This document shows, piece after piece, positions 10,187 to 29,268 of a stretch of DNA of 64,000 nt. This DNA comes from a virus. Position 1 is the stretch's first letter. Every line of letters begins with the position of its first letter. The stretch lies in the IMG/VR virus record IMGVR_UViG_3300022752_004829, positions 1 through 64,000 of that record, one strand, 5' to 3'. The notes under the pieces are model-generated. The model was not told where the DNA came from. It saw only the letters and a list, made by a program, of their open reading frames with translations, and searched no databases. Position numbers and translations under genes: made by a program.

Positions 10187-10274
10187 CGGAACGAGTAGGA
10201 TTCGAACCTACGGATGATATTAAACCATCGGAAGTTTAGTAAACTTCTGCTTTAGACCACTCAGCCATCGTTCC
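10187..10274 (-). tRNA. tRNA-Ser, anticodon ACU, long variable arm, CCA not encoded
   Basis: Acceptor GGAACGA/TCGTTCC with G73; D arm GCTGAGTGGTCTAAAGC; anticodon arm GAAGT-TTACTAA-ACTTC; T arm GTAGG-TTCGAAT-CCTAC. Confidence 0.92.
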
Positions 10275-11526: not shown

Positions 11527-12519
11527 TTATATATATTCTTTGTTTCCAGAAAAAATTATGTCTACTGGTTCTTGTAAGGCATGATTTAATTGATTTTTAA
11601 TAAAGGATTGCATAGCTTGTAATGTATTAAATTTATATAGATTATTATTTTGAAACAATTTATATGTATGTATTTTTTCAAGAATATCACATTTATTAAT
11701 AATTAACTTAGTGACACCAGAAATTTTAATTGCGTCAATTAGTTTATTTAGATTTAACCAGTTTGCAATTCTGCGTCTTCCAGTAGTTGATCCAAATTCT
11801 TGACCAGCTTCAATTAACATATTTAATTCTGAGTCTTCCCATAAGCTTTCTGGAAATAGCGGATCTACTCCGCTTTTTGTATCATAAATCTTTGCCACGC
11901 CAATAATGTCTCGAATCTTCTTAGGAGAAAAACCTAAAGAGCAGGCGGAATAAGGTAAAGTTTCGCTACTTGTTACATATGGATAGTCTCCATAATTAAT
12001 ATCAAGCCAAAAACTTTGTGCTCCTTCACAAAGAATTTCTCCATAAAGTTCTCCATCCCAAAGATAATTTTTATCAATATAATCTCTTGCAAGCTTTCCG
12101 ACTCTTAACATCTTATCTCCGTAAGCGGGAGCAATGCCTTGACCAGTTGTTCCAAGCTTTTTCTTTAAAACAGCAAGATCATAATTTATATGTTTTTCTG
12201 TAATAATATGAGCTTTTGGACTTACTTTAATTAAAGAAGTGTTGAATCCTTCTTTATTTAAATACTCTATTTCATCAAAAAATTTATCAACATTAATAAC
12301 ACAATTAGGCCCAATAATACTAAGTTTGTTTTGAAAAACTCCGCATGGAATAATATGTGTTTTATATTTTTTCTCTCCTAAATAAACTGTATGTCCAGCA
12401 TTAGGTCCGCCATTCCAGCGACAAACAATATCATAATTTTTGCTAATAGCATTACTTATTTTCCCCTTCCCCTCATCTCCCCAAGCTAAACCAAAGATTA
12501 TATCAATATTTTTAATCAT
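11527..12519 (-). CDS. purA: adenylosuccinate synthetase, short form
   Basis: WGDEGKGK, GGPNAGHT, GTTGQGIAPAY, EGAQ, YPYVTSS, EFGSTTGRRR, NKCD. Confidence 0.93.
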   Translation of the reverse strand: MIKNIDIIFGLAWGDEGKGKISNAISKNYDIVCRWNGGPNAGHTVYLGEKKYKTHIIPCGVFQNKLSIIGPNCVINVDKFFDEIEYLNKEGFNTSLIKVSPKAHIITEKHINYDLAVLKKKLGTTGQGIAPAYGDKMLRVGKLARDYIDKNYLWDGELYGEILCEGAQSFWLDINYGDYPYVTSSETLPYSACSLGFSPKKIRDIIGVAKIYDTKSGVDPLFPESLWEDSELNMLIEAGQEFGSTTGRRRIANWLNLNKLIDAIKISGVTKLIINKCDILEKIHTYKLFQNNNLYKFNTLQAMQSFIKNQLNHALQEPVDIIFSGNKEYI

Positions 12520-13010: not shown

Positions 13011-13399
13011 GGGCCTGAATTTGGTTTCGATTTTAGTATTGAGAATTAAAATGCAGGTAGAGGTTTAGGTGGGTCTCTTTAAAAAGCCTTAAAAGTATTA
13101 ACTGCCAAAACAGCCAAATACAAAGGTCATATCTCTGCTAGAGTTTCTCTAGTCGAGGAGACCGTTTCTGTAGCTTAAGTTCTACAGCGTGATTACCGCG
13201 ACGCATCTAACGGATAATTGCGTATTTAGATGTCTTTGCTTATAAAGTTTTTTTATTCTTTATAAGTATAGTATTCAAAATAAAATCGCCAATTATGTCT
13301 GTTTTTCTTCTATAAAAGGTTAAAAATAAGAAAAACTAAACTTGTAGTATTTTAATTCAGATTATCTAGAAGACCTCGGTTCGACCCCGAGCAGGTCCA
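13011..13399 (+). ncRNA. ssrA: tmRNA
   Basis: Acceptor GGGCCTG/CAGGTCC-A with G3:U70; GGTTTCGA D-like loop; T arm CTCGG-TTCGACC-CCGAG; tag ORF 13104-13178 after TTAACT, (A)AKTAKYKGHISARVSLVEETVSVA*. Confidence 0.92.
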
Positions 13400-13447
13400 T
13401 TATATATTTTTTATATATGTAGAAAATTTTCGTGTAATAGTAAGTAT

Positions 13448-21341: not shown

Positions 21342-22406
21342 TTATAGCTTAAAATCGCCAAAATCATCATCAGATATATCTGTTTTCCTTGCCCCAATTT
21401 TATATGTTGAAATTTCTGTTTCTTGTGGAGCAACTTGGACTTTGCTACTATCAAGATAGCTATCTAACCATCCAGCAATAGGATTATCTTTTTGATTAAA
21501 GATTTTCTTATATCCTAATGATCGCAAACGAGCGTCACAAAGCCACTTAGAATAACCAGCTAAAACTTCTGCGTTTAAACCTAACAAAGAACCCTTACTA
21601 AATAGATATTCAGCCCATTCAATTTCATTTTTAGCAGCTTGTTCATAAAAAGCATATATCTTATCTTCACTCTTTTTAACTATAGAAGTAAAACCTTCTT
21701 TATCTTCTTCTTTAAGAATCTTAATTAGATTTTGAGTTGTAGCAAAATGAAGAGCTTCATCTCTTTGAATAAATTTAATAATCTTAGCATTACCTTCCAT
21801 CTTACCTCGATATCCAAAATAAAAAGAACAAGCGAATGAGACATAAAATACAAGACCTTCCATAACATTAACAGAAAGAATACAATCAAAAATCTTTTGT
21901 TTTAAATCTTTTTTATCATCATCGCCAAGGATCTTATCAAAATTATTTCTAATTAATTCTGCACGAGATACTATTTCTTTATCTTCCATAATACTATCAA
22001 AAAATTTACTAGCATCTGGATGTACGTTATTAAGTAAGTACGAATAAGAATAACTATGAATACCTTCAAATCTTTGCCAAGTATTCATGCATATTTCAAG
22101 CTCTGGATTACTGACGTAATCTTTTAAAGAATGGATACTTCTAGACAGCATACTATCTCCAAGGGTTTGGAATTTTAGATTAGTATCAAATACGAATCTT
22201 TCTTGACCAGCTAAATCTTTATAATCACTACGATCTTTATTTAGTGCTATCTCATGAGGCCACCAAAAGAATTCTTCTTGTTTCTTAAATAGTTCAAAAA
22301 ATATAGGATATTTAAAACGATCATATCTTTGAAGATTAAGATCCTCTCCAAAAAATAATGGTTGTTTCGTATGATCTATATTTTTAAGATTTAAAACGCT
22401 TTTCAT
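21342..22406 (-). CDS. nrdB: class Ia ribonucleotide reductase, beta subunit
   Basis: FWWPHEI, EGIHSYSY, EGLVFYVSFACS, RDEALH, VQVAPQETEISTY. Confidence 0.96.
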   Translation of the reverse strand: MKSVLNLKNIDHTKQPLFFGEDLNLQRYDRFKYPIFFELFKKQEEFFWWPHEIALNKDRSDYKDLAGQERFVFDTNLKFQTLGDSMLSRSIHSLKDYVSNPELEICMNTWQRFEGIHSYSYSYLLNNVHPDASKFFDSIMEDKEIVSRAELIRNNFDKILGDDDKKDLKQKIFDCILSVNVMEGLVFYVSFACSFYFGYRGKMEGNAKIIKFIQRDEALHFATTQNLIKILKEEDKEGFTSIVKKSEDKIYAFYEQAAKNEIEWAEYLFSKGSLLGLNAEVLAGYSKWLCDARLRSLGYKKIFNQKDNPIAGWLDSYLDSSKVQVAPQETEISTYKIGARKTDISDDDFGDFKL

Positions 22407-22409
22407 AAG

Positions 22410-24671
22410 TTATAATTTACACGCTCCAGAAGAGCAATCTCGATCTTCTTTTTGATTCATTAGTTGTTCTTTATCTCCATCGTCTGTATTATTATAATAA
22501 AGACTAATTAACCCTAAAGAATAAGCATACATAATTTCCTTCATTACTTTTGCATCTGGAAGAACATTATTTTCATAATGAGAATAGTTATAGTATACAT
22601 TAGTTGATATTGCCATGTCAATATATTTTTGAATAACTGCATTTACTTTTAATAAGCCAGAGTTATCTTTGAAATTATAAGCTAATTCGTAATTATCATC
22701 ATATTTTCCAACTCCAGGAACTAATACTGGTAACTTACCCATTTTACTCATTTTATAAGTAATTAAACTACGAATTGGCTCTACTCCATTGGTTGAAGAT
22801 TGAATTACTGAACTACTTTCGCATGGCATACAAGATGATAAAGTTGAATGCCTTAAACCAAATTCCTTAATATCTTTCCTTAGCTTCTCCCAGTCAAGAG
22901 ATAGTTTCCTTTTACAAAATTCATCTACTTTATCTTTATAAGTATCAATAGGAAGAATTCCTTTAGAGTATTTTGTTCTATCAAATTTTTCACACTTGCC
23001 TTTTTCTTTAGCAAGTTCTAAACTTGATTTTAAAAGATAGTATTGAAAATGTTCCATCCATTCATCAAGAACTGGAAGAGCCTTATCGGATGTATATTTT
23101 AATTCATTTTTAGCAAGATAGGCTGCTAAATTAGTTATACCTACCCCAAGACTACGACGTTTTTTTGCAAAATTTTCAGCAGCAGTATTAAAATAATCTT
23201 GAATCTCAATAATTTCATCAAGAAATCTTACAATAAGATCGCAAGTCTTTTCAAGATCCTGCCAGTTTTTAATTTCTAGCATATTTACTGCGGAAAGAAT
23301 ACACATACCAATTTCACCATTTTTATCATGATAATCATTTAATGGTATTGTGGGATGAATAACTTCTGTGCAAAGATTACTCATTGTAACTTTATCTAAC
23401 CAAGCTCCATGATTATTAGCGTGATCTACATTTAGAATATAAATTCTACCAGTTTCAACTCTTTCTTTTATAATTAAAGAAAATAGTTTACGAGCAGATA
23501 CTTTTTTCTTTATCTTTAGCTTCTTCGTTTCGCATTCTTTATAGACTTTATCGAAATCTTTTGTTCCCCAAGCTTCATATAATTCTGGAACTTCTGAAGT
23601 ATTGAATAGAGTAATCTCTTCATCTTTTAAAACTCTATCATAGAATAGTTTACTCATGCCAACAGTATAATCTAATTTACGGACACGATTATCATCTGTT
23701 CCTGCGTTATTTTTTAATACTACAATATCTTCAATTTCGTAGTGCCACCATTGAATATTGCAAGTAGCACTTCCGCCACGAAGACCATTTTGTTGCCATG
23801 CCTTTACGCTACTCTCATAAATTTTAAGAAATGGAATCAATCCAGTATGAACTACTTCTCCATTTTTTATAGGAGATCCAATAGCTCTTATCTTTGATAC
23901 GTCTATACCTATTCCGCACCTACTAGCTGTAGCCATACTTACGGCAGTTGCACTTGCAGTAATACTTTCTCTACTATCATCAACTCCAATCAAACAGCAA
24001 CTAGCATAATTTTTACTGGGGGTTCTTACTCCAGCCATTACTGGTGTTGGGAGATTGATTTTATGTTTGCTAATAGCATCATAAAATTTACGAACATAAT
24101 TTAATCTTGTCTCTTGTGGATAGTTTATGAAAGCATAAGCTGCAATTAAAACGTAAGCGAATTGAGGAGTTTCATAAATTTTTCCTGTTACGCGATCTTT
24201 AATAAGATACTTATCGCATAATTGTTTTATTCCAGCGTATGTAAAATTATAATCTCTTTCATGATCAATAAATTCACCCATCTTATTCATTTCGTCTTCA
24301 GAGTATTTTTCTAAAATTATAGAATCATAAATTTTATTTTTTAAACCTTGATTTATAAATTCTAATAAACGAGGAGCATGCTTACCTTTCCAAACATCTT
24401 TTCTTAGCTGATAATTCAGTAATCTTCCTGCGACATATTGATAATTTGGTTTTTCTACAGAAATTAAATTCGCTGAAGACTCAATTAATAATTTATGTAT
24501 TTCTTTTGTACTAACACCATCTGTCATATTTATCTTCGCATTGATTTCAATATCAGTCAAACTTACGTTACTCAAATCTTTCGTTGCCCAACTAATAACT
24601 CTATGAATTTTTTCTATATTAAATTTTTCAGTTGATCCATTTCTTTTTCTTACGTTTATATTCTTACTCAT
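22410..24671 (-). CDS. nrdA: class Ia ribonucleotide reductase, alpha subunit with ATP cone
   Basis: VRKRNG ATP cone, YETPQ, PTPVMAG, SCCL, SNLCTE, NGVEP, C-terminal CSSGACKL. Confidence 0.97.
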   Translation of the reverse strand: MSKNINVRKRNGSTEKFNIEKIHRVISWATKDLSNVSLTDIEINAKINMTDGVSTKEIHKLLIESSANLISVEKPNYQYVAGRLLNYQLRKDVWKGKHAPRLLEFINQGLKNKIYDSIILEKYSEDEMNKMGEFIDHERDYNFTYAGIKQLCDKYLIKDRVTGKIYETPQFAYVLIAAYAFINYPQETRLNYVRKFYDAISKHKINLPTPVMAGVRTPSKNYASCCLIGVDDSRESITASATAVSMATASRCGIGIDVSKIRAIGSPIKNGEVVHTGLIPFLKIYESSVKAWQQNGLRGGSATCNIQWWHYEIEDIVVLKNNAGTDDNRVRKLDYTVGMSKLFYDRVLKDEEITLFNTSEVPELYEAWGTKDFDKVYKECETKKLKIKKKVSARKLFSLIIKERVETGRIYILNVDHANNHGAWLDKVTMSNLCTEVIHPTIPLNDYHDKNGEIGMCILSAVNMLEIKNWQDLEKTCDLIVRFLDEIIEIQDYFNTAAENFAKKRRSLGVGITNLAAYLAKNELKYTSDKALPVLDEWMEHFQYYLLKSSLELAKEKGKCEKFDRTKYSKGILPIDTYKDKVDEFCKRKLSLDWEKLRKDIKEFGLRHSTLSSCMPCESSSVIQSSTNGVEPIRSLITYKMSKMGKLPVLVPGVGKYDDNYELAYNFKDNSGLLKVNAVIQKYIDMAISTNVYYNYSHYENNVLPDAKVMKEIMYAYSLGLISLYYNNTDDGDKEQLMNQKEDRDCSSGACKL

Positions 24672-24788
24672 ATCTTTAGTGTGAATATAAGTTTACAGTA
24701 TTTTTTTAAAATATAAAAGAAAAAATATTGTGTTATTAACAAATAAATAAATCTTAATACATATAGGTGTACGTAATATTTATTATTA

Positions 24789-25067
24789 TCTTCCCAATGA
24801 GCTCCTGCAAAGCGAAGCTTTCCCTGTAATCAGGGTATTTAGAGCTGATTAATTCTTCTTCCCAATTGAGTCCATAAGCCTTTCGGCTTGCCTAGCACTT
24901 ATCGGATGTCGGTAGGATCATCCATCGCGCGCTAGCCCTTCCACCTACACTCCCTTAATTTCTTAAGGTTCCTCGGGTCGCAAGCTTCGTTAGCGTTGCC
25001 CGACGTTTGAATTAATCTAACTCGCTATTTATGTAAATAGCAAAACTTGTGCTTATTTGGCACTATG
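24789..25067 (-). ncRNA. unassigned structured RNA (~280 nt) upstream of nrdA
   Basis: GC-rich island with no annotated ORF; many stems, GAAA tetraloops, G-U pairs that work on the minus strand, a long-range closing helix and its own promoter. Confidence 0.75.
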
Positions 25068-25073
25068 TATAGT

Positions 25074-25123
25074 ATCATACTAACTTATTTTTTATTTGTC
25101 AATTTTATTTTTTGTGGTATAAT
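25074..25123. promoter_or_regulatory. divergent promoters for the ncRNA/nrdA and for the glycan cluster
   Basis: Minus TTGACA(25097-25102)-N17-TATGAT(25074-79); plus extended -10 TGgTATAAT (hexamer 25118-23), 6 nt before ATG 25130. Confidence 0.75.
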
Positions 25124-25129
25124 ATTTAA

Positions 25130-25891
25130 ATGTTTAGTATCTATAGTTCGGCCTTTAATCTCATTAATAATAATTTTGATTATACTGAATCTATTAATAA
25201 TTTTTGTAGTTTTGCTGATGAAGTAGTAATAGCAGTAAATAAATCAGAGGATAATACATTTGAATCGTTAAAATCATTAAATTTTCATAATTTAAAATTA
25301 ATTAAAACAAACTTCTCTTATCAAGATCCGTTATTAGATGGTAAAATTAAAAATGAAGCATTACAGAATACGAAAGAAGAATTTAAGATTGGTCTTGATA
25401 TGGATGAATATATTCCATTATGGCAAAAAGATATCTGGACAAATTTAGCCTATCAGTTAAGATTTGATATCTATGATTGCTATATGATACCTTCATTGAA
25501 TCTCTATAAAGATAGAGACAATTATTTTTCAATAGGACATAAATGGTATTTGCACAAAGGTAATCTTTTTAGAGGAGCAGTTAATTTTGCCAAAAATAAA
25601 GACGGAACAGTTGATACCTCAAGGAGTGATACCTGTGAATTGATAGATCTAAATGGAAATTTAGTACAATCTAAAATATTTGACAAAGATATTAATACGC
25701 TAAGATCTAAAATAGCTCCATTCGTAGTTCATAAAGGATATTTAGATTTACAGAATAGAATATTAAGAAACAAAAATTTTTGGAAACAACATTGGAAAAT
25801 TGAGTCTGGAGGTTTTGAGCCAAAGCATAAAGTCCATGAATCACTGGAAGATTTTAATGAGAACTATTATAATCATTTACTAGATATATGA
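25130..25891 (+). CDS. glycosyltransferase (GT-A, GT2-like)
   Basis: FADEVVIAV..SEDNT; LDMDE (DxD motif). Confidence 0.75.
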   Translation: MFSIYSSAFNLINNNFDYTESINNFCSFADEVVIAVNKSEDNTFESLKSLNFHNLKLIKTNFSYQDPLLDGKIKNEALQNTKEEFKIGLDMDEYIPLWQKDIWTNLAYQLRFDIYDCYMIPSLNLYKDRDNYFSIGHKWYLHKGNLFRGAVNFAKNKDGTVDTSRSDTCELIDLNGNLVQSKIFDKDINTLRSKIAPFVVHKGYLDLQNRILRNKNFWKQHWKIESGGFEPKHKVHESLEDFNENYYNHLLDI

Positions 25892-26589
25892 AGAAGTTGC
25901 CTTTATTTAACGACTCAGAAATAGAAGTAGATGATATAATTTACGATCAGATGATCGATCAATGGTATAAGATGGAAGAGTGTATCGAAGAAGCAAAATC
26001 ATCTTATAATTTTTATGATGGCGGTAACTTTTTTGATATAGGTGCTTTTAATGGCATATATAGCTATATATTAGCCCCAAAAGCTAAAAATGATTTCTTT
26101 ATCTCCTTTGAGCCAGATACAAGATTTCTGGATTTAATTAAATATGCTCTAGAAAATCTATCTAGGAAATATAGTAATATTTATCATCAACTTATTGCTA
26201 CCCCAGTTGGAAACGGAGAGAATATAAGTTATAATCTACCTAATCTTGGACCAAATGGTGAAGTTGGTAATCCGTGTTTTTTTGGAGATTCAAATTCAAA
26301 AAATGGCATAAAAACCATAACAATTGATCAATACGTTAATGATACGAATATTATACCTAATATTATTAAAATTGATGTAGAGGGTGCAGAGCTTAATGTT
26401 CTTAATGGCTGTAAAGAGGTACTAACAAAATATAAACCTAAGATAATCCTTGAAATTCATAACGATTATTTAAGAAAAAATTTTAATACCGAGCCAGTAG
26501 AAGTAATAAATTTCATAGAAAAATTTAATTATAAAGAGAATTTAAATGCAAAAAATCAAAAAGTACAAAAAATATTATATTTTGAATAA
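25888..26589 (+). CDS. FkbM-family methyltransferase
   Basis: FDIGAFNGIYS, FEP, IKIDVEGAELNVLNG. Confidence 0.9.
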   Translation: MKKLPLFNDSEIEVDDIIYDQMIDQWYKMEECIEEAKSSYNFYDGGNFFDIGAFNGIYSYILAPKAKNDFFISFEPDTRFLDLIKYALENLSRKYSNIYHQLIATPVGNGENISYNLPNLGPNGEVGNPCFFGDSNSKNGIKTITIDQYVNDTNIIPNIIKIDVEGAELNVLNGCKEVLTKYKPKIILEIHNDYLRKNFNTEPVEVINFIEKFNYKENLNAKNQKVQKILYFE

Positions 26590-27602
26590 TGAAAATAGCT
26601 TTAATAGGTAATGATTATGTTCAGCAATTTCCATTAGAAAATTATGGTGGAATTGAGACTTGTGTTGAAAATTTAGCGCAAGGTTTATACGATAATAAAA
26701 ATGATTTTTTTGTTGTTTGTCCTAAAAGAAAAAATAAGAAAGAATATCCTTTTGATATCTATGAGACAGAAGAACAGCCTACATCAATAACGAATAAGAA
26801 TAGTTCTTATTACGCCTATTCTGTAGCTAAGATTTTAAAAAACTTAGAATTTGATATAATTTGGAGTCAAAGTAATTGGAGTATAGATCCATTATTATCA
26901 TTAAAAAAACCAATTATATGTACGTTTCATGATAGTTGTGAAAAACAATATGGGTGGATGAAAGATTTAGATAGAGTAAAATATAGATTTATTTCTAATT
27001 TTCAATACAATAACTGGGTCAAAGAAGGATGGGAAAAGCAAAAAAGTTTTATGTGTTACACTGGTCTTTCTAATTCAGAATTTAAATTAAATAAATCTAA
27101 GAAAGATTATTTCTTATGGTGTGCTGGATTAAACTGGGGTCTAAACGCAAAAGGTTTAGATGTTTTTATAAAATTATCTGAAATTTTTAAGAATAAAAAT
27201 TTTATCGCATATGGGGCAGGAAATAAACAGCTGGAAGAATATCTTTTAAATAAAAATCAAACAAATTCTAATTTTTTATTTAAAGGTAAATTAAATAGAG
27301 GAGAAGAACATGAAATAGTTTTCTCGAATGCCAAAGCTTTCTTTTTCCCAACTAGACTACCAGAAGCATTCGGAAGAACAATTATCGAAAGCTTTTCTAA
27401 AGGAACACCTGTTTATGGATCAAGAAATGGCGCATCAGAAGAATTAATAGAAGATAATATAAATGGACTAAAATTTGATTTAGATAATATCAATATAAAT
27501 TTAGATATTAATTTCGATTATTCCAATATATTTAATATGTCAAAAAAATTTCATATAGGAAATGAGATAGAGAAACTTTTACAAGAATCTAGAGACTTAT
27601 GA
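26589..27602 (+). CDS. glycosyltransferase, GT4
   Basis: YGGIE; KGLD; EAFGRTIIESFSKGTPV. Confidence 0.9.
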   Translation: MKIALIGNDYVQQFPLENYGGIETCVENLAQGLYDNKNDFFVVCPKRKNKKEYPFDIYETEEQPTSITNKNSSYYAYSVAKILKNLEFDIIWSQSNWSIDPLLSLKKPIICTFHDSCEKQYGWMKDLDRVKYRFISNFQYNNWVKEGWEKQKSFMCYTGLSNSEFKLNKSKKDYFLWCAGLNWGLNAKGLDVFIKLSEIFKNKNFIAYGAGNKQLEEYLLNKNQTNSNFLFKGKLNRGEEHEIVFSNAKAFFFPTRLPEAFGRTIIESFSKGTPVYGSRNGASEELIEDNINGLKFDLDNININLDINFDYSNIFNMSKKFHIGNEIEKLLQESRDL

Positions 27603-28303
27603 AAATATTAGAAAATGTTACTCTTTTAACAATAATGGGCAATCCAAAGCCATCGTTCAAAGAAAACTATAATTTGATGGACAAAATAATAGATAGATCA
27701 TATAGCGAGCTAAGATTTAATAGTATAAAGATACTATCCGCGCAGGATGAAGATTTTGATTTTAAAAACAAGAATGTATCAATTATAAAAATTAATCCTA
27801 TGTCACAAGCAGGATATAATGCTTTTTGCATAAATCATTTATATAAATATGTAGACACAGACTTTGTTCTACTTTTTCAGAATGATGGGTTTATTTTAAA
27901 TCCAAAACATTGGTCAGATGACTTCTTAAATTATGATTATATCGGAGCCCCATGGCCAAGTTATGAGAATTCTAGAGTAGGAAATGGAGGATTTTCTTTG
28001 AGAAGCAAAAAGTTTCTAAATGCGGTTAAAAATTTAGTTTATATAGATGGTATAGGTTTGTCTGGAGGAGAGTTTACTCCAGAAGATCATCTGCTATGTA
28101 GACATTATTATGATTACCTAATTAAATTAGGTATAAAATTTGCACCAATTGATATAGCTATTAGATTCTCTTTTGAACAAGCAATACAAGAATATCCATT
28201 TTGGAATAATGATATGTCTTTAGGATTTCATGGTTTATTTCAAAGTGGATGGGATAATGATGAATTTAGAATTAATTTAAAAAAAGAATATAATCTATTA
28301 TGA
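27599..28303 (+). CDS. DUF5672-family putative glycosyltransferase
   Basis: FQNDGFILNP, YDYIGAPW, VGNGGFSLRS, PED, GFHG. Confidence 0.85.
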   Translation: MKILENVTLLTIMGNPKPSFKENYNLMDKIIDRSYSELRFNSIKILSAQDEDFDFKNKNVSIIKINPMSQAGYNAFCINHLYKYVDTDFVLLFQNDGFILNPKHWSDDFLNYDYIGAPWPSYENSRVGNGGFSLRSKKFLNAVKNLVYIDGIGLSGGEFTPEDHLLCRHYYDYLIKLGIKFAPIDIAIRFSFEQAIQEYPFWNNDMSLGFHGLFQSGWDNDEFRINLKKEYNLL

Positions 28304-29268
28304 AAGTAGCGTTTTTTAATCATCAATTATGTATAAGAGGATCTACTGTGTCTTTATATAATTATGCGTTAGCTAATCAAACACTATTAGGCAATGAATC
28401 AATTATTGTATATATGACTGATCCAGATAATCTTCCTCACACAGATTCTACAGTATTAGAAAAGTTTAATAAAACATTTAAAACTAGGGGGTTTGATAAT
28501 TGGGAAACATTAGATCAATACCTAAAAGAAGAAAAAGTTGATGTACTCTTTAAGAGTTGCGGTGGGTGGAACGATGGTAAAGTAAGTAAACATGCAAAAA
28601 CGTGCGTTCAAGCAATTTTTGATATATATCAACCACACGGAGACGTTTACTCATATCTTCATGAATATATGTCAAATAAGATGACTAGCGGAAAGGCCCC
28701 ATATGTTTATGGTATATGCGACTATCTGCCAGAGTCTAATTTAAATTTAAGAAAGATTTATAATATTCCATCTAGCGCAAAAGTCTTTGGTAGAATTGGA
28801 GCGAAAGATTCATTTAATGTAGATTGTGCAAAACATGCAATTATAGATTTAGTCAATAATACAGAAGATGTTTATTTTATGTTTTTTGGTACAGATTCTT
28901 TTTATGAACATCCTAGAATTATATACTTACCAAAGTCTCATGAATATCAAGATAAATCAAATTTTGTAAATGCTTGTGATGCAATGCTTCATGCAAGAAT
29001 AGATGGAGAAATTTTTAGTTTATCTATATCAGAATTTTTATGGTTTGATAAACCAATTATTACATATCATATAGGACATCAAACTGGACATTTTGAAATT
29101 CTAAAAGATAAAGCTATAATTTATAAAGATAAAGAATCTTTATGCTCTATTATTAAAAATTTTAATAAAAATAATTATCCTAAAAATTACTATAAATCAA
29201 TTATAATAGATAATGGATTTACGACAGAAAAAGTAATGCAAAAATTTAAAGAAGTTTATTTAAGTTAA
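28300..29268 (+). CDS. glycosyltransferase (GT-B)
   Basis: RGSTVSLYNYA; CDAMLHARIDGEIFSLSISEF. Confidence 0.8.
   Translation: MKVAFFNHQLCIRGSTVSLYNYALANQTLLGNESIIVYMTDPDNLPHTDSTVLEKFNKTFKTRGFDNWETLDQYLKEEKVDVLFKSCGGWNDGKVSKHAKTCVQAIFDIYQPHGDVYSYLHEYMSNKMTSGKAPYVYGICDYLPESNLNLRKIYNIPSSAKVFGRIGAKDSFNVDCAKHAIIDLVNNTEDVYFMFFGTDSFYEHPRIIYLPKSHEYQDKSNFVNACDAMLHARIDGEIFSLSISEFLWFDKPIITYHIGHQTGHFEILKDKAIIYKDKESLCSIIKNFNKNNYPKNYYKSIIIDNGFTTEKVMQKFKEVYLS

What the first reader, a model, noticed from the sequence alone, without database searches (positions are those of the whole stretch)
24789..25067. Unassigned ~280-nt pseudoknotted RNA with its own promoter, upstream of nrdAB
Seen: a GC-rich island with no annotated ORF, starting just after TTGACA-N17-TATGAT on the minus strand. 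It folds into 5' hairpins (GUGC/GCAC; UUGCUAUUU/AAAUAGCGA) and a long-range helix, GAGUU-A-GAUUAAUUC (25023-25009) with GAAUUAAUC-AGCUC (24855-24842), enclosing about 150 nt. Inside are UCGGG/CCCGA, CCUUAA-GAAA-UUAAGG and a GAGU/ACUC-closed domain. That domain holds the hairpin CUAGCGC..GGAUG/CAUCC..GUGCUAG, whose loop CCUAC can pair with the upstream GUAGG (a pseudoknot), and AAGCC-GAAA-GGCUU. CUCA(A)UUGGGAAGA occurs twice (24870-24857 and 24801-24789). G-U pairs and GNRA loops point to the minus strand. I cannot match it to RNase P, SRP, cobalamin or purine riboswitches, or hammerhead. Inference: a new phage ncRNA, ribozyme, or nucleotide-sensing leader for ribonucleotide reductase.
Basis: partly seen in the sequence, partly recalled or inferred. 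Interest (0 to 1): 0.85.

Follow-up and report, generated by a model that had tools for sequence, protein, structure and literature searches.

The report
Stand-alone twin-box phage RNA gene
The GC-rich island before nrdA is a real gene for a knotted RNA of about 290 bases, found in many uncultured lake phages and in no RNA catalogue; it is not a control element of the reductase genes, and two short stretches in it always mutate together for a reason still unknown.

Summary
Window 24783-25071 (-) is a GC island (49% against about 27%) behind TTGACA-17-TATGAT. It folds well (z -4.6) and matches no Rfam 15 family, even at E<=10.

A covariance model found one copy in 58 of 80 related IMG/VR phage records, and I confirmed members on at least 87 contigs. 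On 59 distinct sequences, 95.6% of cells pair (shuffled 73.9%) and 50 of 62 pairs change on both sides. The pseudoknot was left out of the model and still covaries.

The RNR-leader reading fails. Distant members lie downstream of nrdB on the other strand with no gene behind them, or 7-10 kb away. Most often they sit back to back with the phage tmRNA gene.

The two boxes (24873-24857 and 24805-24789) have identical 9-nt tails in 57 of 59 sequences, across 10 tail versions. A fixed one-base register difference argues against plain gene conversion. I found no complementary partner and no reverse transcriptase.

The function is unknown. My best guess, at about 0.2, is that box A RNA re-pairs with template DNA at box B, as in ColE1 RNA II.

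This scan has reported the same family, and other twin-box RNAs, on other phage DNA. My searches found nothing in print.

The parts
25074..25102 (-). Sigma-70-type promoter: -35 TTGACA (25102-25097), 17-nt spacer, -10 TATGAT (25079-25074). The transcript start is inferred near 25068-25066, at the conserved ACAUA.
   Evidence: 11 of 12; a promoter scoring at least 10 of 12 stands at the same distance in 58 of 59 distinct family members, and 56 rows list an exact TTGACA.
24783..25071 (-). The RNA gene as matched end to end by the covariance model. The 3' end of the transcript is not known.
   Evidence: 295.8 bits, model positions 1-295, the only significant match in the window..
25049..25063 (-). 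P0 hairpin GUGC/GCAC.
   Evidence: Both sides differ between subfamilies by eye. Not counted, because its columns are not in register.
25042..25048 (-). J0/2, AAGUUUU, with invariant U residues. It is complementary to the 5' half of either box, giving two mutually exclusive helices.
   Evidence: with box B, 86.8% of cells pair and 2 of 6 pairs change on both sides; with box A, 95.2% pair against 91.3% shuffled. The support rests mostly on invariant letters.
25024..25041 (-). P2 hairpin (GCUAU ... AUAGC).
   Evidence: helix 1: 5 of 5 pairs change on both sides and 100% of cells pair.
25009..25023 (-). P3 5' strand (long-range helix).
   Evidence: helix 2: 14 of 14 pairs change on both sides and 98.2% pair.
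24974..25002 (-). P4: an outer CGGG/CCCG helix, an internal loop, and an inner CGC/GCG helix with a variable loop. The sequence is highly conserved.
   Evidence: helix 3; the inner pairs 90-107, 91-106 and 92-105 covary (98.9% paired), whereas the alternative GCAA/UUGC pairing used in the model fails in 28 of 59 sequences.
24953..24968 (-). P5 hairpin.
   Evidence: helix 5: 5 of 6 pairs change on both sides.
24944..24948 (-). Pseudoknot 5' strand GUAGG (in J5/6).
   Evidence: helix 6. It pairs with 24916-24912. Two pairs covary: AU 48 / GC 7, and CG 25 / GC 25 / GU 4 / AU 1.
24892..24935 (-). P6 (CUAGCGC/GUGCUAG) enclosing P7 (GGAUG/CAUCC). The P7 loop holds the pseudoknot 3' strand CCUAC (24916-24912).
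   Evidence: helices 7-9. Coordinates.
24878..24887 (-). P8 hairpin GCC-GAAA-GGC with a GNRA loop.
   Evidence: helix 10: 3 of 3 pairs change on both sides. L015 has GUG-GCAA-CAC.
24857..24873 (-). Box A, GGA-C-UCA-A-UUGGGAAGA. It is the strand joining P8 to P3 inside the core.
24842..24855 (-). P3 3' strand.
   Evidence: helix 2.
24809..24835 (-). P9 (CCCUG/CAGGG) and P10 (AAAGC/GCUUU) hairpins.
   Evidence: helices 11 and 12.
24789..24805 (-). Box B, GGA-GC-UCA-UUGGGAAGA, at the 3' end of the conserved RNA.

Best explanation
SHOWN. This is a separately promoted, early-type (sigma-70 consensus) gene for a structured RNA of about 285-290 nt. It occurs once per genome in a clade of uncultured, AT-rich, T4-like lake phages. 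A long-range helix, P3, encloses four hairpins (P4, P5, P6/P7, P8). The P7 loop pairs with the strand between P5 and P6 to form a pseudoknot. Two further hairpins and box B follow. The RNA is not tied to nrdAB.

The two boxes have the form RRA-N5-tail. They keep identical purine-rich tails while the tail sequence drifts between lineages.

INFERRED. Identity itself is under selection, which points to read-out by base pairing against a single complementary strand. The only such strand that needs no further gene is the template DNA of the RNA's own gene.

My committed guess is this: box A, held in the folded core, re-pairs with the template-strand DNA at box B, 65-75 nt downstream, just before a very AT-rich stretch. 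That would anchor a persistent RNA-DNA hybrid that marks or primes DNA replication. It follows the logic of ColE1 RNA II and the R-loop origins of T4, both recalled rather than read.

I put about 0.9 on the 'what it is' part and about 0.2 on this mechanism. The confidence value given is that of the mechanism.
For: Gene and fold.

Independence from nrdAB.

Boxes:
- The tails are identical in 57 of 59 distinct sequences; the other 2 are identical over 8 nt.
- There are 10 tail versions, and 6-9 of the 9 tail letters are purines in 58 of 59.
- The best covarying partner of each variable box column is its twin.
- The single-lineage changes seen are U>C in both boxes (L068), G>A in both (L069), and G/A/U at the last tail letter. 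Transitions can pass through a wobble intermediate.
- The register difference (box A: RRA-C-UCA-A; box B: RRA-RC-UCA) is kept in every subfamily. Plain gene conversion would be expected to erase it.

No complementary strand turned up in the RNA, its flanks or the window.

The 200 nt downstream of box B are 19% GC.
Against: There is no transcript, R-loop or replication data: no RNA run holds the stretch.

A primer RNA would not obviously need so elaborate and conserved a tertiary fold.

The position of the gene in the genome varies.

AT-rich DNA after box B is the rule everywhere in these genomes.

Transitions are also the commonest mutations under any model.

Earlier notes of this scan reached the same idea, but that is not independent evidence. 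One later check of a related twin-box report put its bold reading at 2 in 100.
Confidence: 0.2

Rival explanations
1. RNA-protein particle. The folded core and the two identical hairpin-linker-box modules bind a dimeric or duplicated protein, from the phage or the host. The boxes track that protein's specificity, as iterons track their Rep protein.
For: Each box follows a hairpin and a short linker, P8 then box A and P10 then box B. In 28 loci of the distant subfamilies a conserved 66-71-aa ORF of unknown family lies next to the RNA. The tmRNA gene, itself part of a ribonucleoprotein, is the commonest neighbour.
Against: A single-base change mirrored in both boxes of one lineage (L068, L069) would need a third, matching change in the protein. 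The small ORF is absent from the 83 kb held for this phage. It has no Pfam or PHROG family.
Confidence: 0.15
2. Two-state or self-processing RNA. The invariant J0/2 strand acts as an internal guide that pairs with the 5' half of box A, giving a second pseudoknot, or of box B, giving a closing helix. The same core can then dock either box, for co-transcriptional refolding or for cleavage or ligation at equivalent sites.
For: Both helices are possible in nearly all members: 95.2% and 86.8% of cells pair, against 23-66% when the partner columns are slid. A U-G wobble is kept in 58 of 59 sequences at the same place in both helices. The overall architecture, with a pseudoknot and a GNRA loop, resembles that of large ribozymes.
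Against: The support comes mostly from invariant letters: shuffled columns already pair at 91.3%. The identical tails themselves stay unexplained. No Rfam ribozyme family matches. The contigs laid on the stretch showed no joint between the boxes, but these were DNA contigs only.
Confidence: 0.12
3. Homo-oligomeric 'ornate' RNA. Box B of one molecule takes, in a neighbouring molecule, the place that box A takes within its own, building an RNA-only assembly like those reported for GOLLD, ROOL and OLE.
For: Abstract of PMC12286853, seen in the listing: large phage-associated RNAs form homo-oligomers. Identical strands would be needed for such a swap.
Against: No receptor that covaries with the boxes was found. 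There is no sequence or model similarity to GOLLD or ROOL.
Confidence: 0.07
4. Cis-acting leader or riboswitch of nrdAB.
For: In the window's subfamily the RNA lies 105-137 nt upstream of nrdA on the same strand, in 46 of the 48 locus rows where nrdA was held. No terminator lies in between.
Against: Homologues lie elsewhere, and in L020 and L002 no gene follows them. A conserved nrdA upstream module lies between the RNA and nrdA, also in the 12 loci shown whose RNA is not at that spot. One contig has another gene in between. No riboswitch family matches.
Confidence: 0.03
5. Template RNA for a reverse transcriptase or other copying enzyme. The complement of box A re-anneals at box B, as in telomerase alignment or the template jump of DRT2 systems (recalled).
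For: Direct repeats at both ends of a 65-75-nt segment, whose identity is under selection.
Against: No RVT_1 domain in the 4 records searched, three of them 86-87% complete; the control genomes did ring. The segment between the boxes varies in length in steps that are not multiples of three and is mostly helical.
Confidence: 0.02
6. A DNA-level element only, such as iterons or an origin, with no functional RNA.
For: Direct repeats next to AT-rich DNA.
Against: Compensatory changes keep RNA helices, including G-U pairs that would be A-C on the other strand. A consensus promoter stands at a fixed distance.
Confidence: 0.02

Closest known systems
ColE1 RNA II primer and the R-loop origins oriF/oriG of phage T4 (recalled from textbooks and from Masukata & Tomizawa 1990; no paper was read here)
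   Same: A promoter-driven, folded, non-coding transcript. An upstream RNA stretch has the same sequence as a downstream one, so it can pair with the downstream template DNA. AT-rich DNA follows. The phage lineage is T4-like.
   Different: There is no sequence or model relation. The pseudoknotted core here is far more conserved. The boxes are 16-17 nt words, not G runs. No RNase H site or DNA start has been mapped. The position in the genome varies.
GOLLD (RF01998) and ROOL (RF03087), large ornate RNAs of phages and prophages
   Same: Large, highly structured RNAs carried by phages, of unknown function, and often next to tRNA-type genes. Here the neighbour is tmRNA in 28 of 51 distinct distant members.
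   Different: No Rfam match at gathering score or at E<=10. The RNA is about 290 nt rather than 500-800. Twin boxes are not described for them, as far as I recall.
Other 'twin-box' phage RNAs noted by this scan, some starting with the Rfam motif Polynucleobacter-1 (RF01718)
   Same: Knotted RNAs of aquatic T4-like or giant phages that carry one fast-changing short word twice (AI notes, unchecked).
   Different: Those are 345-490 nt and usually sit behind a small nuclease gene. RF01718 does not match here or in three near-complete relatives, although that search had no positive control. Whether the families are homologous was not tested.
Riboswitches upstream of nrd genes: cobalamin (RF00174), and 2'-dG-I of Mesoplasma (recalled)
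   Same: The position of the window's copy, just 5' of nrdA. A multi-helix junction with a loop pseudoknot.
   Different: No model match. Homologues are not tied to nrd genes. No expression platform was found.

Membership tests
Any Rfam 15 family (4227 models, including RNase P, SRP, 6S, tmRNA, group I/II introns, riboswitches, GOLLD, ROOL, raiA, HEARO, Polynucleobacter-1) | A covariance-model match at or near the family's gathering score. | tested here: not met
   at gathering score the window gives only tmRNA and tRNA, both elsewhere; at E<=10 on 24650-25150 there are two chance hits only; at E<=10 on 9 loci from the main, L015, L020, L059 and L063 types there is nothing on the RNA; no RF01718 match in 4 records, but that search had no positive control.
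Cis-regulatory leader or riboswitch of nrdAB | A constant position 5' of the regulated gene on the same strand across homologues. | tested here: not met
   members lie on the opposite strand downstream of nrdB, 7-10 kb away, or next to tmRNA.
Cis-regulatory leader or riboswitch of nrdAB | An expression platform: a terminator or a helix that sequesters the ribosome-binding site, coupled to the aptamer. | tested here: not met
   0 terminator-like sites; no consistent hairpin plus U run; an independent conserved nrdA upstream module lies between the RNA and the start codon.
Group I intron | The P3-P8 and P4-P6 topology, a guanosine site in P7, and insertion within a gene with exon-pairing P1/P10. 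| tested here: not met
   No RF00028 match. The strand that pairs with the P7 loop lies directly before P6, with no P4-P6 domain in between. nrdA is intact and starts with its ATP cone.
ColE1 RNA II-type primer RNA | An upstream RNA segment able to pair with the template DNA of a downstream segment, meaning the same sequence occurs twice in the RNA. | tested here: met
   the tails are identical in 57 of 59 sequences, and the spacing is 65-75 nt.
ColE1 RNA II-type primer RNA | A persistent RNA-DNA hybrid, RNase H processing, and a DNA synthesis start at the 3' end. | not testable with these tools
   No RNA or R-loop data: one search lists no RNA holder.
Template RNA of a reverse transcriptase (telomerase or DRT2 type) | A cognate reverse transcriptase gene. 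| tested here: not met
   0 of 4 records, three of them 86-87% complete; the control genomes rang.
Type III antitoxin or CRISPR-repeat mimic | Tandem, full-length repeats of 23-50 nt, with unique spacers or a cognate nuclease gene. | tested here: not met
   Only 16-17 nt are repeated. The stretch between the repeats holds the 3' strand of P3, which covaries with its distant partner. No such neighbouring gene was seen.

The most novel reading that the evidence does not exclude
Twin-box RNAs are a new functional class of phage RNA. A conserved catalytic or scaffolding core reads one short 'word' present twice in the same molecule. The RNA can then re-pair with its own gene, or exchange strands at two equivalent sites, to start replication or to process itself. 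If so, this would be a mechanism without a described counterpart, spread over several RNA families of aquatic T4-like phages.
Probability: 0.2. Interest if true: 0.9.

Novelty: categorically new. Interest (0 to 1): 0.75.

Why it matters
T4-like phages of streamlined lake bacteria are abundant, yet they keep about 290 nt for a promoter-driven, pseudoknotted RNA that no catalogue lists. Each held record that carries it has one copy.

The selected identity of two internal words is a clean evolutionary signature. It narrows the possible mechanisms to templated or pairing-based read-out, and simple box-swap mutants can test it.

If the RNA starts replication or processes itself, it adds a new kind of functional RNA. 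If it is a protein scaffold, it points to an unknown phage-host interaction, possibly linked to the phage's own tmRNA.

It also shows that a position in front of nrdA is not evidence for a riboswitch.

Tried and rejected
- Rfam at gathering score and at E<=10: nothing on the RNA.
- blastn of the window's RNA and of the L020-type RNA against 50,697 GenBank phage records: no match.
- Model R1 on the cultured relatives Pelagibacter phages Mosig and HTVC008M and Methylophilales phage Melnitz: no match at E<=1. These runs had no internal positive control, but the same model scores 54-333 bits on family members.
- A P4 pattern search of genome contigs, 185,579 species: 0 matches. This gives no host hint.
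- Sequencing runs: no RNA holder is listed, and 11 DNA rows from lake, freshwater and (at a small share) soil metagenomes hold part of the stretch.
- Contigs of 4 runs laid on 24600-25200: no joint between the boxes. The only joint came from a divergent relative. Contigs cannot show RNA ends. This is no evidence on expression either way.
- A third copy or a complement of the box: 12-mer with up to 2 mismatches in the window, 7 hits against 3.9 expected, and the one 1-mismatch hit lies inside a 735-aa ORF. Complement of tail plus RRA: 11 hits against 10.5 expected. Column-wise Watson-Crick partners and duplex scans of RNA plus flanks in 15 representatives: no consistent site. The local best hits were the 3' strand of P4 in the main type and the T-rich nrdA module in two L063-type loci; neither is conserved across subfamilies.
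- The weak R1 hit at window 12029-12184 lies inside a purA-like ORF: chance.
- The upstream 253-aa gene as a partner: it occurs only in the window's closest subgroup.
- p66 as a partner: no family, and none in the window or L136.
- Reverse transcriptase and Polynucleobacter-1: none.
- L120, which shares the P4 hairpin sequence: R1 does not match it. Rfam gives only a sub-threshold hammerhead II nearby.
- Print searches that found no description of this RNA: pelagiphage / noncoding RNA / structured RNA; pelagimyophage / freshwater / tmRNA; nrdA / RNA motif / phage / covariation: 0 papers; six terms: 8 papers, none relevant by title or abstract.
- Papers. PMC9004378: abstract and passages through 'find'. 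PMC2864571: one table passage. PMC12286853 and PMC7029224: search listing and start of the abstract only. Work on ColE1, T4 origins, DRT2, nrd riboswitches and NrdR boxes is recalled and was not read. Supplementary files were not requested; the motif files of Weinberg 2010 could bear on the Polynucleobacter-1 comparison.

Full report
WHAT IS THERE. The window is part of an 83-kb IMG/VR virus record estimated 54% complete. The stretch 24800-24999 has 49% G+C, against 19-31% on both sides. On the minus strand it follows TTGACA-17-TATGAT at 25102-25074, 11 of 12 matches. As RNA it folds to -89.9 kcal/mol with z -4.64, and none of 200 shuffles folds as well. Downstream lie class Ia nrdA (22410-24671) and nrdB (21342-22406). 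Upstream, on the other strand, a glycosyltransferase and methyltransferase cluster begins. No Rfam 15 family matches, either at gathering score over the whole window or at E<=10 over 24650-25150.

RELATIVES. NrdA fetched 80 related viral contigs, 78-96% identical.
- nhmmer with the RNA found 20 of 80, and 21 after iteration. All of these lie just upstream of nrdA.
- I aligned 25 distinct sequences and built covariance model R1 from them. R1 then found full-length, much more divergent members (54-75 bits, E 1e-17 to 1e-24) in loci that nhmmer had called empty.
- Searching the whole records of the remaining loci added 9 more.
- In total, 58 of the 80 records carry the RNA, one match each. The 22 without it are 3-74% complete. 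They include all eight records of the NrdA 78-80% group.
- Two pattern scans of IMG/VR added 9 and 19 further contigs. That makes at least 87 contigs including the window.
- The window holds one copy.
- Three cultured relatives gave no match: Pelagibacter phages Mosig and HTVC008M, whose NrdA is 53% identical, and Methylophilales phage Melnitz. Neither did GenBank phages by blastn or 185,579 prokaryote species by a P4 pattern.
- The DNA runs that hold the stretch are mostly lake and freshwater metagenomes.

STRUCTURE. On the model-made alignment of 60 members, 59 of them distinct, the structure plus the pseudoknot pairs 95.6% of cells, against 73.9% after shuffling and 29-41% when the partner columns are slid. 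Fifty of 62 pairs change on both sides. The alignment was fitted to the model, which favours the nested helices. The pseudoknot, GUAGG at 24948-24944 with CCUAC at 24916-24912, was not in the model and still shows two compensatory pairs.

Mutual information corrects P4: the inner helix is CGC/GCG (columns 90-107, 91-106, 92-105; 98.9% paired), not the GCAA/UUGC pairing I first used. A two-pair contact between J3/4 and the P7 loop is possible, but it rests on a single two-state split.

A promoter scoring at least 10 of 12 stands at the same distance in 58 of 59 distinct members. No consistent intrinsic terminator follows.

NOT AN nrdAB LEADER.
- In the window's subfamily the RNA ends 105-137 nt before nrdA. 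The exception is one contig where a 371-aa glycosyltransferase-like gene lies in between.
- That gap holds a conserved nrdA upstream module, which begins at TACAC. Of the 16 loci shown whose RNA is not at that spot, 12 keep it.
- In the divergent subfamilies the RNA takes one of three positions. It lies before nrdA in 5 loci. It lies downstream of nrdB on the opposite strand in 23 loci; in L020 and L002, whose ORFs I listed, it is convergent with the neighbouring gene and no gene follows it. Or it lies 7-10 kb away, in three records checked against the ranges.
- The commonest neighbour is the phage's tmRNA gene. It is divergent and 106-895 nt upstream in 28 of 51 distinct non-main members, and in 24 of the 33 with at least 1200 nt of upstream DNA held; L141 adds one more by cmscan.
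- A 66-71-aa ORF of no known family often lies in between.
- In the window the tmRNA gene (13011-13402) is 11.7 kb away.

THE TWIN BOXES. Box A (24873-24857) is the strand joining P8 to P3 inside the core. Box B (24805-24789) follows P10. Both have the form RRA-N5-tail.
- The 9-nt tails are identical in 57 of 59 distinct sequences. The other two are identical over 8 nt with a gap at the ninth.
- There are 10 tail versions, and the spacing is 65-75 nt.
- The best covarying partner of each variable box column is its twin.
- L068 has U>C in both boxes and L069 has G>A in both. The RRA triplet also changes together, GGA, AGA or GAA, in 53 of 59 sequences.
- The five letters in between keep a fixed one-base register difference in every subfamily: C-UCA-A in box A and RC-UCA in box B. 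So the boxes are not simply homogenised by conversion. Identity of the flanking parts is selected.
- I found no complementary strand in the RNA, its flanks or the window.
- The 5' half of either box can pair with the invariant J0/2 strand, including a U-G wobble kept in 58 of 59 sequences. This rests mainly on invariant letters.
- No reverse transcriptase domain occurs in 4 records, three of them 86-87% complete.

READING. Shown: a stand-alone, early-promoted, pseudoknotted RNA gene family, with two internal words under selection to stay identical.

Inferred: read-out by base pairing against one complementary strand. The most economical candidate is the template DNA of the gene itself, with box A RNA pairing on box B DNA. 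That gives a ColE1 RNA II-like anchored hybrid next to AT-rich DNA. I rate this at about 0.2.

The rivals are a protein-bound particle (0.15), a two-state or self-processing RNA that uses J0/2 as guide (0.12), an RNA-only oligomer (0.07), an nrdAB leader (0.03), a reverse-transcriptase template (0.02) and a DNA-only element (0.02). The remaining probability goes to something not yet thought of.

PRIOR KNOWLEDGE. Four full-text searches found no description. This scan has already reported the same family on other genomes, with the same verdict, and has reported other, larger twin-box RNAs in aquatic T4-like phages. I reached the structure, the distribution and the twin-box result from my own calls before reading those notes. 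New here, as far as the notes I saw go, are:
- the pairing with the tmRNA gene and the small ORF;
- the fixed register difference;
- the corrected P4;
- the absence of a reverse transcriptase;
- the absence from three cultured relatives.

One later check quoted in those notes gave a related bold reading 2 in 100, and I have kept my own bold reading modest accordingly.

Noticed in passing
window 13011-13402 (+) and 10187-10274 (-): The phage carries a one-piece tmRNA gene (111.9 bits) and a long-arm tRNA that ARAGORN calls tRNA-Ser. In related phages the tmRNA gene is the usual divergent neighbour of the twin-box RNA.
   Followed up: partly
L020 7089-7289 (+); also 27 other loci: A conserved 66-71-aa ORF (MEIIKNKARW...YPC...KKDC) with no Pfam or PHROG family lies between the tmRNA gene and the RNA, about 55 nt from the RNA's 5' end. 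None was found in the window or in L136. A distant homologue lies 7.5 kb from a main-type RNA in L104.
   Followed up: partly
window about 24770-24690 (-): A conserved nrdA upstream module (TACAC ... TTGTTAATAAC ... TTTTTTCTTTT ... CTGTAAAC) is also present in 12 of the 16 loci shown whose RNA is not at that spot. It may be the real nrdAB promoter or operator. Any resemblance to NrdR boxes is from memory only.
   Followed up: no
L012 1790-2905 (+): A 371-aa glycosyltransferase-like gene is inserted between the RNA and nrdA in one contig. The family label is by eye and was not tested.
   Followed up: no
L120 10644-10669 (+) and 9917-9977 (-): An unrelated, GC-richer viral contig holds the same P4 hairpin sequence (GGGCAACGCU-loop-AGCUUGCGACCC) inside about 1 kb without a convincing ORF. 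A type II hammerhead match 1.6 bits under the gathering score lies 0.7 kb away.
   Followed up: partly
L137 592-1440 and 1856-2680 (RNA-oriented coordinates): In one phage the RNA gene is flanked on both sides by ORFs of 274 and 282 aa whose first 40 residues differ at only one place.
   Followed up: no
window 25130-29268 (+): A divergent cluster starts right at the RNA's promoter. It comprises an unknown 253-aa protein, an FkbM-type methyltransferase, a GT4 glycosyltransferase and a DUF5672 protein. It is part of the glycan cluster noted earlier by the scan.
   Followed up: partly
window 11527-12519 (-): A 330-aa adenylosuccinate-synthetase-like ORF (GDEGKGK motif, by eye) lies near the tmRNA gene. 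It looks like an auxiliary purine-metabolism gene.
   Followed up: no
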